DNA from: Naegleria gruberi
Lineage: Eukaryota
DNA length: 64,000 bases
NCBI GenBank assembly: GCA_000004985.1
Contig: GG738877.1
Reading direction: 5' to 3' (one strand)
This document shows positions 56,606 to 64,000 of the stretch, in pieces; position 1 is the stretch's first letter; each line of letters starts with the position of its first letter. Under the pieces are notes generated by a model. That model was not told the DNA's origin, ran no database searches, and saw only the letters and a list, made by a program, of their open reading frames with translations. A program made the translations under genes and the position numbers.

Positions 56606-58838
56606 ATGCCATCAAGAAAAGTAGTATTTACTTCACCTCCTAAAATACTTCAATCACCAACATCATCTTTATCTTCATTAAAACATTCATCTCCATCAAT
56701 GGATTATCATCAATTATCAATGGAACATTTTAATAATAAAGAATATGAACAATCATTGGAAAATTTAAATAAACTCTTAAAAGAAACAACCAATACAACA
56801 GAAATATTTAAAATTAAACATAATATTGCAATAGTAAAATATTTACATGAAAATCATTCGGAAGAAAAATTACTTTTAGAATTGGAAGAAATTAAACAAT
56901 CAACTAGAAAACATTCTAATCATCAATTTCCAATTTTAATTTACAATCAATCTGTATTATATTATAAAAAGGAAAAATATAACAAAGTATTAGAATTATT
57001 GGAGCCTTTATTTGAATCATTAGATTCTAATAATGAAAATTCTATTAATAATCAATTATTAAAATATGATGAATTTCTAGTTTTAAAAATATGTTTTTTA
57101 TTATTAGATATATTTATTGATAATATGAAATCAATTGAAAAATCACAAAATGTAATTAAATATATTGATAATAATTTTCAATCTATTATTCAAAGTACAA
57201 TACCATCTCTTCCACAATTAAATATAACAGAACTTTCTATAACTGAATCAAAATTTAACATTTTATTTTATAAGACAAAATTAGCAATTTTACAAAAAGA
57301 TGAAATTTCAATCATTTTAGATTTTATTCAATCTGCTAATCATGTTATTAAAAATGCAAATATTTCAAAAGAGGAAAATAATTATATTAATAGTATCATG
57401 ACAAGTAAAATTTGTCTACTCGAATGTTTTTTAACTTTAACTAGAAATAATTCTAATAATAATGAAATTTATCATAAAAATATTAAAGAATGTATTCAAT
57501 TATTAACTCATCATAAAGAATCACTATCTCCAATTGTTTATTTTAATAATTTAGGATGTATTTATTTAAAAAAAGAAAATGGAAATTCTACAATGTCACA
57601 ATTTTACTTTTCCAAAGCATCAAAATCAAATAATTCTTTTGCTTGTTATAATTTAGCTTATCAATATTTATTAAGAGAATCTGAGAAAATTAAAGAAATT
57701 ACAAATTGCCTTTGTAAAAATAATCCATTTCTTGATTGTTATGAATTATTTCATAAAGCTTCATTAACAATGTATGATAATCCTTATTTATGGATTAGAA
57801 TGGGAGAATGTATTTTATGTGAAAATCAAAGATTATTGAAAAAGGAAATTTTTGAATCATTTCAACAAATGTCAAATAATTGTTCTGGAAATCAAACAAT
57901 TCATTTACCAGTATTAACAAATTGTGGAATTAAGAAATATTCTTTACAGAAAGATATTTTAGATGTGTAAGTTTATTCTTTTATTTAATATGTGAAACCA
58001 TTTCAATATATATTCATATTAATATTATTAATATTTAATATTATTAATATTTAATATTATTATTAAATGTATTATTTCATTAAATATATAAATTACTAGA
58101 TGTGAAGAAGAATTAACTAAACAAAACAAGTATAATATTGAATTATTAAATGATAGATTTACAAGAAAGAATTTAGAAGAAATGTCATTAGAAATGGCAG
58201 AAAAATGTTTTCATAATTCTTTAATAATTTTATCTAATATTTTATCAGAATATAAAATGAAATATAATTTAAATGATAATTTTCAAACATTACAAAGTAA
58301 TAATGAAATGATTAATCAATCATTTATTAGATTACAACAAGCACTTATTAATGTAACATTAAAATTAGCATATGTTTCATTATGTTTAGATAATCCATTA
58401 ATTTCAATTACACATTGTAAAACTATACTTTCACTTTCAATTTCATATTCAAATTTAAATATATGTCCTGTACAATATACTATAATTGCACTTTCATATG
58501 CATTTGAAGCATTAACAATGACAGATCAATCAGAAAAAGTATTTCAAATAGTTACACCTCAACAATTACAAATTCTAGTTACACATTTACAACAATCATA
58601 TTCAGAAAGTGAGGGTTTATTATATCAACAAATATTACTTTTAAATTTATCAATTGTTCATTTAATTCAAGGAAATTATGAAAAATCACAACAAACTCTT
58701 CATCACATTACTCAAAATATTCATCAATTACCAAATCAAATCAAACCTTACTTTTTATGTGTACAATTATATCTTTTATTAATTGAAGGTAAATCACAAC
58801 AAGCCATTCAATTAATTTCTTCAATAAAAATTCAATAA
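56606..58838 (+). CDS. CNOT10: CCR4-NOT complex subunit 10 (TPR-like), 2 exons
   Basis: ILIYNQSVLYYKKEKYNKVLELLEPLFESLD...LVLKICFLLLDIFID (human [33 protein letters not shown]...AVCFLLVDLYIL); NPYLWIRMGECILCENQ (NPRLWLRLAECCIAANK); LNLSIVHLIQGNYEKSQQTLHHITQNIH ([29 protein letters not shown]); PYFLCVQLYLLLIEGKSQQAIQLISSIKIQ ([26 protein letters not shown]). Intron at about 57966..58099 (GTAAGT...ACTAG). Confidence 0.85.
58010..58072. repeat. AT-only tandem repeat (about 16-nt unit AATATTATTAATATTT, about 3 copies) inside the CNOT10 intron
   Basis: Direct reading: attaatattattaatatttaatattattaatatttaatattattattaaat. Confidence 0.7.
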
Positions 58839-58952
58839 TTAACATCATAATGACCTTTCAATTCACTCTCTCAACACTTCAAATTTGAATAACGAAAAAC
58901 TTTGTTTATATTATGAAATGATTGGAATTCTAATCACTTTCTATCCCATATA

Positions 58953-60140
58953 TTGTCCACTTACCCATTAACTTCCAATCACGTTCAATCTAAAAATACA
59001 AAACAAAATATTGAAAAAAACATCACCAAACATCATCAAAAGGCTTTGAAAAGGATGATGAATAATCAAAACCAACAACAACAAGGAACATTTCCATTTG
59101 ATAGTGCCATTCTATCTGATAATTCACAATATACCTATGGAGGAGAACAATCGTGTACATATATTTGTTTAACTGCTATTGAATACTTTTTAAATAATTA
59201 TTCCAAGTTTAGAATTCCGATTTCATCATCAACATCAAAAGATCTTAAAATTACAAAGAATGATATTGATTATGTATTACAATTAGGTGTTTCAAGAGAT
59301 AGAAAAGTTGGACTAACATCATGTGATGATGTTTATTCTAATAACGAATATTTTCAAAAAACACTTGAATTGAAATCAATGCACATTTCAAAATTAAGTG
59401 ATAGTCTTTCTTTTAAACAATTACTTAAAGAAATGGAATCAAAATCAATTGATACAAAATCATCAAGTGATGTAACTGCTCTAGTTTTAACTAAACCACC
59501 TGAAACTATTGCTATATTTTATGATTGTTATGGTTATTTAAATGGAAAAGAGAATGAATATTATCCATGGTTTATATTTGATTCACATCCAAGAAAATAT
59601 AGTAGAGGTGGTGGTTTTTATTTATTTAAGGATTTATCTAAAATTGAACAATATTTGAAAAAATTATTTATTGATGATTTTGATTATTATAGAAATATGT
59701 TTGATTCTTATCAAGCTAAATCTCATGTCATGTTTGAAGGTACTATTGTAACATTAAAACCTCTTTCAAATTTGAAAACTATTCAACCACCACAAACTGT
59801 AAATCAACCACAAATTGTAAATAGTCCAAGTCAACCAGTCAAACAAGAATCAAACATTCCAAATAATACTAATAATAATAGCACTCCAAAAGAATCTCAA
59901 AAACAAGTAATAGTTCAACAACAACCAGTAGATCAAAATCAATTGATTGAACAATTAATGAAAAAGATTGATCAATTAACACAAGTTAACAAACAACAAT
60001 TTGAAGAAATTCAAACACTTACCTACTTGTTAAAAGAAGAACAAGAAAATCATCAAAGAACTGCATTAGAAAATCAAAAGCTTAAAAAATCAACCAAACA
60101 ACAAGAAAATGTAATTGATAAGATTTTCTCTTCCTTTTAA
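58953..60140 (+). CDS. Hypothetical protein; N-terminal globular region with Cys...His arrangement, C-terminal Q/N-rich coiled coil
   Basis: 395-aa ORF with SCTYICLTAIEYFL (Cys) and later FIFDSHPRKYSRGGGFYLF (His), a spacing reminiscent of papain-fold peptidases/deubiquitinases. C-terminal LIEQLMKKIDQLTQVNKQQFEEIQTLTYLLKEEQ coiled coil. No firm family. Confidence 0.4.
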   Translation: MSTYPLTSNHVQSKNTKQNIEKNITKHHQKALKRMMNNQNQQQQGTFPFDSAILSDNSQYTYGGEQSCTYICLTAIEYFLNNYSKFRIPISSSTSKDLKITKNDIDYVLQLGVSRDRKVGLTSCDDVYSNNEYFQKTLELKSMHISKLSDSLSFKQLLKEMESKSIDTKSSSDVTALVLTKPPETIAIFYDCYGYLNGKENEYYPWFIFDSHPRKYSRGGGFYLFKDLSKIEQYLKKLFIDDFDYYRNMFDSYQAKSHVMFEGTIVTLKPLSNLKTIQPPQTVNQPQIVNSPSQPVKQESNIPNNTNNNSTPKESQKQVIVQQQPVDQNQLIEQLMKKIDQLTQVNKQQFEEIQTLTYLLKEEQENHQRTALENQKLKKSTKQQENVIDKIFSSF

Positions 60141-60397: not shown

Positions 60398-61613
60398 ATG
60401 AAAAGATTATCAACAATCATATTTATAATTTCTTGTATTTTGTTATTCTTTACTTTAATAACATCAACAAAGGCTGATGATGATGGATTATGTTTAATGA
60501 CTAGTAATGGATTTGAGAATGGAACAAATAATTTCCCAACAGTTAAGAATAGTGTACCTTTTTATTTGGATCCACAAGCTTCATCATCTCTTGGAACAAT
60601 TTGTCCACATTTAGTTGGTCAAAAAGTTTGTTGTAATTCTACTCAAGTTTCTACAATGGTTTCTCGTTTTACACTTTTAGATGCAACGTATGTTGTTTTA
60701 ATATTATGTAATAGTTTTAATTGTTATATGAAATTGTGTTACAATGATTGTACAATCACATTTGGAATTTCATTGAACATTTGGATTAATCTATTGATTA
60801 ATATTTATCAAATATATTTTAATGATAATTGTTTTAATATTGATATGAAAAATTAGATTTTGGCGTTGTATTGCTTGTGTTTTAAATTTAAAGAAAATGT
60901 GGTGTGATTTTACATGCAGTAATCAACAAGGACATTTTCTTACCATTGAATCAATGTATGAAACACCAAAATATGCTCAATATATTAAGGAAGTTAATTT
61001 TTATGTTTCATTAGATTTCCAAAATCAAATTTGGGAAAGTTGTAAAGATGTTAAATTAGGTCAATTACCAGTTAAAGATACATATGCAAATGTTAGAGCT
61101 TATTTACAAGGAATGGTAAATTTAGCAGTTCCAAATCCAAATATTCAATACATTTTCCAAACAAGTGAATCACATCTTGAAAAACTTACAATTACAAAAA
61201 ATATTACAAAAACACCACTCAGATATGATCAATCACCAAATTATGAAGATATTTCAGTTCCATCAGTAGAACATTACAAAACTAGAAAAATTCAAGATTT
61301 CAATAATTCAACAACTCAATTTTATAATGGAACAATGTTAGCATGTGAATTATCATGTGATTGTACATATTGTGAAAAGGCTTGTGGAACAATTACACCT
61401 GATTATTCATGTAAAATCTTTGGATCACCATGTTTTGTTGTTGCATCAATTGGTGGAAGTGTTATTTTAGGTTTATTTATTATTGCAATCATTTCTGCTC
61501 TATTCGAAAGAGGTTTTAATTGGTTTAGAAATAGAAATAACAAAACGAATGAAAATATTGAAGTTAATCAAGAAAATTCTTTAAATTCAGATAGAAGATA
61601 TAGAACATTTTAA
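60398..61613 (+). CDS. NPC1 N-terminal domain (sterol-binding NTD)-only protein with signal peptide and single C-terminal TM anchor; 2 exons
   Basis: Signal peptide MKRLSTIIFIISCILLFFTLITS. The NTD is collinear with human NPC1 NTD: LCLMTSNGFENGTN...ICPHLVGQKVCCNSTQVSTMVSRFTLLDAT ([33 protein letters not shown]). A GTATGT...AATTAG intron at about 60689..60855 restores FWRCIACVLNLKKMWCDFTCSNQQGHFL ([29 protein letters not shown]). The gene ends with one TM (VVASIGGSVILGLFIIAIISALF) plus a short tail and stop at 61613. No sterol-sensing domain or further TMs follow. Confidence 0.7.
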
Positions 61614-61678: not shown

Positions 61679-62761
61679 ATGAATACTACCACAACAACAG
61701 CTCCTCAACAACTACTACAACAACCACAATTTATGAATAGTCCATCACTTCATTATAATAATTTACCTCCGGACCATATTCTCAATAAACAAAGATCTAA
61801 TATTAGTATTAAACAAATTAATAAGAATATTCAAACTATTACAAATAATACTAATACTAATAATAATACTAATACTACTAGTAATAATAATATAACATCA
61901 CCATCAATAATGAATATTCCACCTAATAATAATAATAATCCGATAACATCAATATTAAATAATAATAACAATTCAATAATGATGTTAAATAATGGTCAAC
62001 CAATAATAATGACAACATCAAATCAACAAATTAATGTTGGAGGAGGAGGTGATTTAATGTTACCTCCTAATAATAATAATAATATTATGAATAATAATAG
62101 CTCTAATTTAAATGTTAATAATAATTTAAATTCATCATTAAATTCAATCAATAATAATAATATCAATAATACTACTACTGAAAATAGTAATAATAATAAC
62201 AATTTAATATTAACAAATCGTACACAATTTTTACTTGATTCATCATCAATAATAAATAATGTAGAAATGTTATTTAATATTCGAATTGGAAATTCTAAAC
62301 AAATAGATATGGAAATTACTAAAAGTGGAAATGAAATTAAACATTATTCTAAATCATGTATTCATGATTTAGATTCACTTCAAAGATATTGGTCAGAATG
62401 TTATAGAATTGAAAGTGAACATTTAAATGATAAACCATTAATGTATATTCCAATTACAGGTTTAATTAATATTAAAGTATTTAAATTATTTAATAATATT
62501 CCAATAATGGAACATAATTTAGAAAAGAAATATGATTTTAGACAATCTGATTCTTTAATAGCTCCAATTAAATTTGATAATAATATTGTAATTGTTTTAA
62601 AATTAATGAAAATGGATTATGTTGAATTTATTGGTTTACAATCATTTGATTTTTATTTAATTAAATCATCACAATCTTCCACTTCTTCATCAACAATAAC
62701 ATTACAATCATCTTCCACTTCTTCCTCTTCAACTGGTCCAATTATTTTAAATAATCAATAA
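61679..62761 (+). CDS. Asn-rich hypothetical protein with a C-terminal globular domain
   Basis: 360-aa ORF. Long poly-N/T tracts, then about 150 aa of ordinary composition (NVEMLFNIRIGNSKQIDMEITKSGNEIKHYSKSCIHDLDSLQRYW...). No family recognised. Confidence 0.45.
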   Translation: MNTTTTTAPQQLLQQPQFMNSPSLHYNNLPPDHILNKQRSNISIKQINKNIQTITNNTNTNNNTNTTSNNNITSPSIMNIPPNNNNNPITSILNNNNNSIMMLNNGQPIIMTTSNQQINVGGGGDLMLPPNNNNNIMNNNSSNLNVNNNLNSSLNSINNNNINNTTTENSNNNNNLILTNRTQFLLDSSSIINNVEMLFNIRIGNSKQIDMEITKSGNEIKHYSKSCIHDLDSLQRYWSECYRIESEHLNDKPLMYIPITGLINIKVFKLFNNIPIMEHNLEKKYDFRQSDSLIAPIKFDNNIVIVLKLMKMDYVEFIGLQSFDFYLIKSSQSSTSSSTITLQSSSTSSSSTGPIILNNQ

Positions 62762-62930: not shown

Positions 62931-63694
62931 ATGTCATCATCAAATGAAATTGAACAATCCAATGAATTGGAAGCACTCCAATCAATTTATCCAACAGAAT
63001 TAACTATTAATTCATCAACAAATTTTAAAATTGAAATTTATCCCTATACAGTCGAATCGGAAACAGAAACTAATAGTGTTGGTATTACATTGGAAGTTAA
63101 TTATACTCCTGATTATCCAGAATCAGTTATACCTTCATTTGAAATTTATAATACAAGAGGTTCTATTACAAAACGTGAAATGAGTGAATTAAAAGACATG
63201 TTAATAGAAACAGCTAATCAATTTTTAGGTACATCATGTGTATTTACTATTGCTAGTACAATTCAAGAATATTTAGTTCAATATCAACAACGTGAATCTG
63301 CTCTAAATGAACAAGATAATTCATCATCTTAACAACAAAGAATGATGAAACATCATCAAAGGATAGATTTACAATGGATTCTGAAGTATTAGCATCAAAT
63401 ATTGGACGAGGAACACCTGTTACTATTGAAAACTTTAGAGAGTGGCGTGATAAATTTGTTGTTGAACAAAAGAAAATTATGGAAAAACAAAGAATTGAAA
63501 AGGCTAAGAAATTACCAGGTCCTAAAAGTGGTAGAGAAATATTTGAAGAACGTCAACAACTTTTGATCAGTAAAATTGGTGAAGCAGCTGCTGCTAATCA
63601 ATACGTTGAAGAGGATGATATTGATGAAGATTTATTCTTGGAAGATGAAGATGAAGAAGAAGTCAATAATGAAGATGAACAAGATGAAGAATAA
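62931..63694 (+). CDS. RWDD1: RWD-domain protein, RWDD1/Gir2-like (DRG-family regulatory protein), with an apparent frame break between the two parts
   Basis: ORF 62931..63332 is an RWD domain (EQSNELEALQSIYPTELTINSS...VGITLEVNYTPDYPESVIPSFEIY...). ORF 63374..63694 is the DFRP region (RGTPVTIENFREWRDKFVVE...KSGREIFEE + acidic tail; human HGTPVTIENFLNWKAKFDAE...LSGKQLFETD). The two are in different frames, with about 10 nt of mutual overlap around 63320..63332 and no usable GT...AG intron. Confidence 0.7.
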
Positions 63695-64000
63695 ACTATT
63701 TATACAGTTTATTTTGTTTATTATTATTGAAATATTTGTTGTTGGATTGTGAACTTTTGGTAATTCTTTCATCATTACAATTTTATTTAAAATTTAAAGA
63801 AAAATTCATCACAATCGATCAGCCTAAACAATTCACACAACAATAAGAAGTGCACTAAAATAATCGGAAGATGACATCTAATCAAATTAATCATAATGAA
63901 AATATCATAAATAATAACAACATGTTATTAGAAGAATTACCTAATGAAATACTTTGTTTAATATTAGATCATTTTGAATTTAAATTTCTATTTCACAATT

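What the first reader, a model, noticed from the sequence alone, without database searches (positions are those of the whole stretch)
60398..61613. Standalone NPC1 N-terminal (cholesterol-binding) domain protein anchored by a single TM helix
After removal of an intron of about 167 nt, the product aligns through the Cys-rich NPC1 NTD (…ICPHLVGQKVCCNSTQVSTMVSRFTLLDAT / FWRCIACVLNLKKMWCDFTCS…). The gene terminates after one TM segment and a ~30-aa tail. It lacks the sterol-sensing domain and 13-TM body of NPC1, and the next gene downstream is an unrelated Asn-rich ORF. An NTD-only, membrane-tethered lumenal sterol-binding module is not the canonical NPC1 architecture and may be a lineage-specific sterol-handling protein.
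Basis: partly seen in the sequence, partly recalled or inferred. Interest (0 to 1): 0.55.

Follow-up and report, generated by a model that had tools for sequence, protein, structure and literature searches.

The report
Membrane-anchored half of split NPC1
This Naegleria gruberi gene really does encode only the sterol-binding head of the NPC1 lysosomal cholesterol transporter on a single membrane anchor, but this "split NPC1" layout was already described for Naegleria and many other protists in 2016, so it is real but not new.

Summary
A two-exon gene (60398-60687, 60857-61613; GT..AG intron of 169 nt) encodes a 348-aa type I membrane protein. It has a signal peptide, an NPC1 N-terminal domain (Pfam NPC1_N, 101 bits, E 1e-28; the AlphaFold model matches only NPC1, NCR1 and NPC1L1 NTD structures), one TM helix and a 35-aa tail ending in YRTF. 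No NPC1 membrane body lies anywhere in the 64-kb window. The window matches Naegleria gruberi; the deposited model is identical but starts at Met34, so it lacks the signal peptide and the first conserved Cys. The N. fowleri orthologue is syntenic, has its intron at the same position and phase, and ends in the same way.

The protein is not lineage-specific. Adebali et al. 2016 (PMC4990510) reported that N. gruberi and most chromalveolates have a 12-TM NPC1 without the NTD, plus a separate ~300-aa protein made of signal peptide, NTD and TM. Trinh et al. 2018 (PMC6062155) showed that an engineered NTD-TM1-lysosomal-signal fragment restores transport by NTD-less NPC1 in trans.

Small additions from this work: a corrected start; loss of two disulfide loops in the standalone proteins aligned; and enrichment of endolysosomal sorting motifs in the tails. 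The 12-TM partner could not be retrieved with these tools. Verdict: already known, low interest.

The parts
60398..60687 (+). Exon 1 (290 nt, ends in phase 2): signal peptide plus the first part of the NTD up to ...LLDA(T)
   Evidence: This is the first ATG of the open frame. An alternative model P0010 and the close relative P0018 begin with the same signal peptide, and P0018 ends at ...LDAT.
60398..60475 (+). Predicted signal peptide MKRLSTIIFIISCILLFFTLITSTKA (aa 1-26). It is missing from the deposited N. gruberi model, which starts at Met34 (60497).
   Evidence: Hydrophobic N-terminal segment. Orthologues have a signal-like segment followed directly by the first conserved Cys. The deposited model P0001 lacks it. 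The cleavage site is inferred, not computed with a dedicated predictor.
60688..60856 (+). Intron, 169 nt, GTATGT...TTAG, 17.8% GC
   Evidence: It lies at the same codon position and phase as the 135-nt intron of the N. fowleri orthologue.
60857..61613 (+). Exon 2, including the TAA stop (61611-61613)
60476..61397 (+). Lumenal NPC1 N-terminal (sterol-binding) domain, aa 27-277 (the genomic span includes the intron). Fourteen Cys align with 14 of the 18 Cys of the human NTD. Gln83 aligns with human Gln79. There are 5 N-glycosylation sequons.
   Evidence: Pfam match to aa 32-166. AlphaFold2 model pLDDT 82.3. Foldseek hits: 3gkh_A E 1.6e-10 TMt 0.66, 9f40_A 0.68, 3qnt 0.66. Cys and pocket mapping.
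61161..61331 (+). Insertion (aa ~199-255) between the core NTD and the C-terminal Cys knot. It is shared with N. fowleri, Willaertia and the MMETSP transcript P0009 among the aligned sequences, and is absent in the others and in human NPC1. Low model confidence; probably a flexible loop.
   Evidence: Alignment. pLDDT is 48-62 over P0001 residues ~170-215.
61356..61385 (+). CxCxxCxxxC knot (C264, C266, C269, C273), aligning with human C238, C240, C243, C247
61398..61433 (+). Juxtamembrane motif PDYSCKIFGSPC carrying an extra Cys pair (C282, C289). It is present in 11 of 27 aligned standalone proteins and replaces the Pro-rich linker of human NPC1.
61434..61505 (+). Single transmembrane helix (aa 290-313), positionally equivalent to TM1 of full-length NPC1
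   Evidence: Hydropathy. Modelled as a long helix. Foldseek alignments to full-length NPC1 are 285-294 columns long, against 235-255 for isolated NTD crystal structures. Equivalence to TM1 is inferred.
61506..61610 (+). Cytosolic tail (aa 314-348) ending in YRTF (61599-61610), a YXXphi-type sorting motif at the extreme C-terminus
   Evidence: N. fowleri ends ...RYSTFN and P0016 ends ...KYSTF. Motif enrichment across family tails. A sorting function is inferred.

Best explanation
The gene encodes the detached N-terminal subunit of a split NPC1 sterol transporter of Naegleria gruberi.

Shown here:
- It is a type I membrane protein: signal peptide, glycosylatable Cys-rich lumenal NPC1 NTD, one TM helix and a short tail.
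- It is a complete gene that is conserved and syntenic in N. fowleri.
- It has many standalone relatives.

Inferred:
- The protein enters the ER.
- It is sorted on its own to endolysosomes or phagolysosomes through the C-terminal YRTF (YXXphi) signal.
- Its NTD pocket (Gln83 = human Gln79) takes sterol from a soluble NPC2-like carrier.
- It passes the sterol in trans to a separately encoded 12-TM NPC1 body that carries the sterol-sensing domain. The two polypeptides together would do what the 13-TM NPC1 does in animals and fungi.
For: NTD identity:
- Pfam NPC1_N at 101 bits and PDB sequence hits.
- The model matches only NPC1-family NTD structures.
- 14 of 18 Cys positions and Gln79 are conserved.

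Complete, independent gene:
- Stops follow in all frames and there is no NPC1 body in the window.
- The N. fowleri orthologue is syntenic, has the intron at the same position and phase, has the same C-terminal end, and has a different downstream neighbour.

Widespread standalone family.

Published comparative genomics:
- N. gruberi NPC1 has 12 TM and lacks the NTD.
- A separate ~300-aa protein with signal peptide, NTD and TM occurs exclusively with such short NPC1s (PMC4990510).

Published experiment:
- Human signal peptide-NTD-TM1 with an added lysosomal targeting signal trans-complements deltaNTD NPC1.
- It needs lysosomal localisation and sterol binding to do so (PMC6062155).

Sorting motifs:
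- YXXphi or [DE]XXXL[LI] occur in 22 of 47 family tails, against 7.0 +/- 2.3 in shuffled tails.
- They occur in the last 8-9 residues of 15 of 47 tails, against 1.7 +/- 1.2.

Against: - The 12-TM partner in N. gruberi was not retrieved here. A search with the human NPC1 body returned only vertebrates, so its existence rests on PMC4990510.
- No sterol-binding, localisation or interaction data exist for any standalone protein.
- The loop that in human NPC1 carries L175/L176 (needed for hand-off from NPC2) and the C177-C184 disulfide is about 10 residues shorter and has no Cys in all 11 standalone proteins in the alignment.
- Human N86 is Arg in N. gruberi, and the residue aligned with F203 is missing. 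Pocket and docking details may therefore differ.
- The shuffle test on the tails does not correct for relatedness among the sequences.
Confidence: 0.78

Rival explanations
1. It is an autonomous sterol receptor or scavenger. The tethered NTD would capture sterol at the plasma membrane or in phagosomes (as proposed for the NPC1L1 NTD) and deliver it directly to the bilayer or to other carriers, without the 12-TM NPC1.
For: The NPC2-docking loop is shortened and two disulfide loops are lost. The protein has its own sorting signal. Acrasis kona has two standalone paralogues. The N. fowleri orthologue is upregulated when feeding on cholesterol-rich host cells.
Against: Standalone NTD proteins are reported to co-occur exclusively with NTD-less NPC1 (PMC4990510). 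In mammalian cells NTD-TM1 alone gave no cholesterol export; it needed deltaNTD NPC1 (PMC6062155).
Confidence: 0.13
2. It has an NPC1-NTD fold but binds a different, non-sterol ligand. The fold is distantly related to folate and riboflavin receptors.
For: Some pocket-region residues differ (R90 for human N86; no counterpart of F203). Weak Foldseek hits to folate receptor alpha and Juno.
Against: The folate receptor hits are not significant (E about 0.8-2, probability 0.23 or less), whereas the NPC1-family hits have probability 1.00. Pfam matches only NPC1_N. Gln83, equivalent to human Gln79, is conserved in 24 of 27 family members.
Confidence: 0.05
3. It is a gene-model artefact: the locus is really the first exons of a longer NPC1 gene whose membrane body is spliced on from further downstream.
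For: Only 2.4 kb of sequence lies downstream in the window, and no transcript data were available.
Against: Stop codons follow in all frames within 66 nt. The three downstream ORFs are conserved, unrelated genes (an Asn-rich gene and an RWD/DFRP_C gene). In N. fowleri the gene ends at the same R-Y-x-T-F terminus and is followed by a SNF2 helicase. Complete transcript-derived standalone ORFs exist in Pharyngomonas, Stygiella and an MMETSP transcript.
Confidence: 0.02

Closest known systems
'Separate cholesterol-binding protein' of split NPC1 systems (Adebali et al. 2016, Genet Med, PMC4990510)
   Same: Same organism named (N. gruberi), same size (~300 aa) and same architecture: signal peptide, NPC1 NTD, C-terminal TM. 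Same inference that it works with a 12-TM NTD-less NPC1.
   Different: Nothing essential; this gene is an instance of it. Added here: exact gene structure and corrected start, conserved intron and synteny, Cys-loop differences, and sorting-motif enrichment.
Human NPC1 N-terminal domain (PDB 3GKH) within 13-TM NPC1
   Same: Same fold (Foldseek E 1.6e-10, TMt 0.66). 14 of 18 Cys positions are conserved, as is Gln79. The domain is followed by one TM helix, as NTD-TM1 is in NPC1.
   Different: It is not fused to the SSD-containing body. It lacks C31/C42 and C177/C184, and the L175/L176 loop is about 10 residues shorter. It has a ~57-aa insertion before the Cys knot. It has a short PDYSC...C linker instead of the poly-Pro linker, and its own YXXphi tail.
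Engineered pNTD-TM1 fragment of human NPC1 (Trinh et al. 2018, eLife, PMC6062155)
   Same: Identical design: signal sequence, NTD, one TM, then a lysosomal targeting signal. It was shown to work in trans with deltaNTD NPC1.
   Different: That construct is artificial and human. The Naegleria protein is a natural gene whose activity has not been tested.
N. fowleri A0A6A5BFF9 / FDP41_009014 ('Niemann-Pick C1 N-terminal domain-containing protein')
   Same: Syntenic orthologue (about 48% identity) with the same intron position and phase and the same TM and RYxTF end.
   Different: 401 aa in the deposited model, with a longer N-terminus and a longer insertion. It has Asn at the position of human N86, where N. 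gruberi has Arg.

Membership tests
NPC1 N-terminal domain (Pfam PF16414) | Profile HMM match above the curated gathering score | tested here: met
   101.2 bits against a cut-off of 27, E 9.9e-29, profile positions 4-142 of 244. The C-terminal Cys knot aligns weakly in phmmer.
NPC1 N-terminal domain (Pfam PF16414) | Same three-dimensional fold as solved NTD structures | tested here: met
   AF2 model pLDDT 82.3. All 12 significant Foldseek PDB hits are NPC1, NCR1 or NPC1L1; TMt is 0.66-0.68 to the isolated NTDs.
NPC1 N-terminal domain (Pfam PF16414) | Conserved cysteine framework | tested here: met
   14 of 18 human NTD Cys positions are conserved. The four missing ones are C31/C42 and C177/C184, and I recall that each of these pairs forms a disulfide in 3GKH. 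The pairing itself could not be checked because model coordinates are not returned.
NPC1 N-terminal domain (Pfam PF16414) | Sterol binding in the pocket (Gln79; Pro202/Phe203) | tested here: inconclusive
   Gln83 aligns with Gln79 and is conserved in 24 of 27 sequences. A Pro aligned with Pro202 is present, but Phe203 has no counterpart and N86 is Arg. Binding itself cannot be tested here.
Split NPC1: separate NTD protein (Adebali et al. 2016) | ~300-aa protein with N-terminal signal peptide, NPC1 NTD and a single C-terminal TM | tested here: met
   348 aa: signal peptide 1-26, NTD 27-277, TM 290-313, tail 314-348.
Split NPC1: separate NTD protein (Adebali et al. 2016) | Same genome encodes a 12-TM NPC1 without an NTD, and no full-length NPC1 | not tested
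   Stated for N. gruberi in PMC4990510. The partner is not in this window. My attempt to retrieve it returned only vertebrate NPC1.
Split NPC1: separate NTD protein (Adebali et al. 2016) | Functional or physical interaction with the NTD-less body | not testable with these tools
   Only the human engineered analogue has been tested (PMC6062155).
Canonical full-length NPC1 / NPC1L1 / NCR1 | NTD fused to a 12-13-TM body with a sterol-sensing domain (Patched PF02460, PF12349) | tested here: not met
   No Patched or SSD Pfam hit in the product. The gene stops after one TM. The bodies of five full-length NPC1s find nothing in the window.
Folate receptor / riboflavin-binding family | Sequence or fold match to folate receptors | tested here: not met
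   No Pfam Folate_rec hit at E up to 1. The best Foldseek hit, 4lrh_A, has E 0.84 and probability 0.23.

The most novel reading that the evidence does not exclude
Standalone NTD proteins may not be simply NPC1 cut in two. The clade has lost the disulfide-braced loop that in human NPC1 carries the NPC2 hand-off residues L175/L176. It has also gained a conserved juxtamembrane Cys pair and its own adaptor-binding tail. It could therefore load sterol by a different route, or shuttle between compartments independently of the 12-TM body. The N. fowleri orthologue, induced on host tissue, could then be a specific cholesterol-scavenging factor in brain infection.
Probability: 0.15. Interest if true: 0.5.

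Novelty: already known. Interest (0 to 1): 0.15.

Why it matters
Natural split NPC1 systems show that the sterol-capturing head and the membrane-translocating body need not be covalently linked. That bears on how NPC1 moves cholesterol across the lysosomal glycocalyx, and it offers a two-gene system for dissecting the hand-off. The point has been made in print (comparative genomics in 2016, trans-complementation in 2018), so this locus adds an example rather than a discovery.

Practical value from this work:
- The deposited N. gruberi model should start 99 nt further upstream.
- The N. fowleri orthologue reported in proteomics as an 'NPC1-like cholesterol transporter' is only the NTD subunit, not a full transporter.

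Tried and rejected
For the same reason the structure model lacks the signal peptide and Cys32.
- The look-up of encoding contigs has no record of P0001.
- The first word-indexed homologue search found only the gene itself. The profile search with alignment A1 found only five proteins.
- The attempt to retrieve the N. gruberi 12-TM NPC1 with the human NPC1 body listed 120 vertebrate sequences and nothing useful. This was a poor use of a capped search.
- Kwon et al. 2009 (PMC2739658) is not held, and no supplements are held for Adebali et al.. The human disulfide pairing is therefore from memory.
- The afdb50 fold library was unavailable.
- The first Pfam call on the neighbours failed on a wrong frame.
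- A GPI anchor was rejected because 35 hydrophilic residues follow the hydrophobic segment.
- Read-through or onward splicing was rejected.
- Adjacency of the partner gene was checked in the flanks of two orthologous loci (L001, L002). No Patched or SSD gene is recorded in either.

Full report
**1. What is in the sequence**

The region 60398-61613 on the + strand holds a two-exon gene.
- Exon 1 is 60398-60687 (290 nt). The intron is 60688-60856 (169 nt, GTATGT...TTAG, 17.8% GC against 27-29% in the exons). Exon 2 is 60857-61613 and ends in TAA.
169 nt is the only GT..AG solution that keeps the frame and gives an ungapped join (...LLDAT|FWRCIAC...) when aligned with homologues.
- The product is 348 aa: a hydrophobic N-terminal signal-like segment (aa 1-26), a Cys-rich domain (27-277), a 12-residue juxtamembrane motif PDYSCKIFGSPC, one hydrophobic helix (290-313), and a 35-aa hydrophilic tail ending in YRTF.
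- There are five N-x-S/T sequons in the ectodomain.
- Stop codons occur in all three frames within 66 nt after the TAA.

**2. Is it an NPC1 N-terminal domain?**

Yes.
- Pfam NPC1_N (PF16414) matches residues 32-166 at 101.2 bits (cut-off 27, E 9.9e-29), and nothing else matches at E up to 1.
- phmmer against PDB sequences finds the human NPC1 NTD (3gkh, E 1.3e-10), full-length NPC1, yeast NCR1 and NPC1L1. The C-terminal CxCxxCxxxC knot aligns with human C238-C247.
- An AlphaFold2 model built on a 27-sequence alignment has mean pLDDT 82.3 and pTM 0.69. Confidence is low only in an inserted loop.
- Foldseek against the PDB gives 12 significant hits, all of them NPC1, NCR1 or NPC1L1. Examples are 3gkh_A (E 1.6e-10, TMt 0.66), 9f40_A (0.68) and 3qnt (0.66). 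The next best hits, folate receptor alpha and Juno, are not significant (E 0.8 or more).

For residue mapping I used the human NPC1 sequence from memory. I first verified it as a 1-1278 to 1-1278 match of 2995 bits to 3jd8_A. The mapping gave the following.
- Naegleria C32, 69, 78, 79, 101, 104, 113, 117, 159, 260, 264, 266, 269 and 273 align with human C25, 63, 74, 75, 97, 100, 109, 113, 159, 227, 238, 240, 243 and 247.
- Human C31/C42 and C177/C184 have no counterpart in any of the 11 standalone proteins aligned. All five fused NPC1s in the alignment have them.
- I recall that these four form two local disulfides in 3GKH. That is from memory, because Kwon et al. 2009 was not available.
- The second missing pair sits in the loop carrying L175/L176, whose mutation abolishes NPC2-to-NTD transfer (PMC6163316). 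That loop is about 10 residues shorter here.
- Gln83 aligns with human Gln79 and is conserved in 24 of 27 family members. Human N86 is Arg in N. gruberi but Asn in 15 of 27 members.
- A Pro aligns with Pro202, but Phe203 has no counterpart. The P202A/F203A double mutant does not bind cholesterol (PMC6062155).

**3. Source organism and deposited model**

The product is 100% identical to a Naegleria gruberi 'predicted protein' of 315 aa that carries only PF16414.
- That model starts at Met34 (60497), so it lacks the signal peptide and the first conserved Cys.
- The upstream ATG at 60398 is the first in the open frame.
- An alternative model (P0010) and a close relative (P0018) use the same start.
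- All orthologues place the first conserved Cys directly after a signal-like segment.

**4. Is the gene complete and independent?**

- Four full-length NPC1 proteins and human NPC1 match the 64-kb window by tblastn only at this locus, and only through their NTDs.
- The downstream ORFs are an Asn-rich gene with no Pfam hit and an RWD/DFRP_C gene.
- The N. fowleri orthologue is P0151 (FDP41_009014, UniProt A0A6A5BFF9, 401 aa). Its locus is syntenic: the upstream 218-aa and 395-aa ORFs, the downstream Asn-rich gene, and the RWD and DFRP_C parts all match.
- Its single 135-nt intron lies at the same codon and phase (LLDM(V)|FWRC, phase 2). Its product ends ...RYSTFN, against ...RYRTF here.
- In N. 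fowleri the next gene downstream is a SNF2 helicase. Onward splicing into a membrane body is therefore excluded for practical purposes.

**5. Relatives**

An exhaustive HMMER search of 1.84 billion cluster representatives gave 520 hits.
- The best 25 are all short. Of the best 150, 122 are under 450 aa and 18 are 900 aa or longer.
- Many short hits are fragments. Dozens, however, are complete proteins with signal peptide, NTD, CxCxxCxxxC knot and TM, followed by a short tail.
- Named members come from N. fowleri, N. lovaniensis, Willaertia magna, Acrasis kona (two paralogues), Pharyngomonas kirbyi, Stygiella incarcerata (a jakobid) and Perkinsela.
- The architecture is therefore old and widespread, not lineage-specific.

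**6. What the literature already says**

- Adebali et al. 2016 (Genet Med, PMC4990510) report that NPC1 in N. gruberi and most chromalveolates lacks the NTD and has 12 TM helices.
- They find that all such organisms encode a separate ~300-aa protein homologous to the NTD, with a signal peptide and a C-terminal TM. The two co-occur exclusively, and concatenating them resembles human NPC1. That is this gene.
- Trinh et al. 2018 (eLife, PMC6062155) built the same design artificially: signal sequence, NTD, TM1 and a lysosomal targeting signal.
- They showed that it restores cholesterol export when co-expressed with deltaNTD NPC1. It did so only if it reached lysosomes and could bind cholesterol, and it had no activity on its own.
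[quoted passage not shown] It is in fact only the NTD subunit.

**7. Mechanism**

Shown:
- the domain identity, topology elements, completeness and conservation of the gene.

Inferred:
- ER entry and type I membrane topology;
- independent sorting to endolysosomes or phagolysosomes;
- sterol uptake from an NPC2-like carrier;
- hand-off in trans to the separately encoded 12-TM body.

One piece of new support for independent sorting comes from the tails.
- Across 47 non-identical family tails, YXXphi or [DE]XXXL[LI] motifs occur in 22, against 7.0 +/- 2.3 in shuffled tails.
- They occur within the last 8-9 residues in 15, against 1.7 +/- 1.2.
- Tyr-type motifs are seen in Naegleria, Willaertia and P0009. 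Di-leucine-type motifs are seen in other members.
- The shuffles ignore relatedness, so this is suggestive only. It does parallel the need for an added lysosomal signal in the engineered construct.

**8. Weak points**

- I could not retrieve the N. gruberi 12-TM partner. A search with the human NPC1 body listed only vertebrates, so that element rests on PMC4990510.
- No biochemical data exist for any standalone NTD protein.
- The shortened L175/L176 loop and the altered pocket residues leave room for a different loading mechanism or an autonomous role. This is the rival explanation and the 'novel case'.

**9. Verdict**

This is an already described component of split NPC1 systems, and interest is low.

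Noticed in passing
window 60398-60496: The deposited N. gruberi protein model (315 aa, P0001) starts at Met34 (60497). It omits the signal peptide and the first conserved Cys. The ATG at 60398 is the better start.
   Followed up: yes
window 62931-63694: An RWD (PF05773) plus DFRP_C (PF16543) gene is split into two ORFs in different frames. The N. fowleri orthologue is a single uninterrupted 254-aa ORF of 765 nt, against 764 nt here. The frame switches around 63320-63335 within ...NSSS*/TTKNDETSSKDRF. This points to an apparent 1-nt indel (assembly error or real frameshift) rather than an intron.
   Followed up: partly
window 61679-62761: An Asn-rich 360-aa ORF starts only 65 nt after the NTD gene's stop. 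It has no Pfam hit, but residues 183-329 are 42% identical to part of a 510-aa N. fowleri gene. It is therefore a real conserved gene of unknown function with a low-complexity N-terminal half.
   Followed up: partly
window 58182-60140: The upstream ORFs are conserved and syntenic with N. fowleri. 58182-58838 is 59% identical to the C-terminal end of a 714-aa TPR/CNOT10-like gene. 58953-60140 is 41% identical to a 384-aa gene with no Pfam family.
   Followed up: partly
L002 (N. fowleri VFQX01000066.1) 11664-19530: There is a synteny break. N. fowleri has four genes between the NTD gene and the RWD gene: a SNF2 helicase and ORFs of 354, 510 and 529 aa. N. gruberi has only the Asn-rich gene there, which is the homologue of the 510-aa gene.
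   Followed up: no
P0019 (544 aa): An unnamed protein consists of at least two and a half near-identical tandem copies of a complete NPC1 NTD, with no TM helix. This is an unusual multi-NTD architecture, or possibly an assembly artefact.
   Followed up: no
P0005 and P0013 (Acrasis kona): Acrasis kona carries two distinct standalone NTD genes. P0013 (223 aa) shows no C-terminal TM in the deposited model.
   Followed up: no
window 63873-64000: An ORF running off the window end begins MTSNQINHNENIINNNNMLLEELPNEILCLILDHFEF..., which reads like an F-box motif. This is from reading the sequence only.
   Followed up: no
PMC11964265 versus P0151: [quoted passage not shown]
   Followed up: yes
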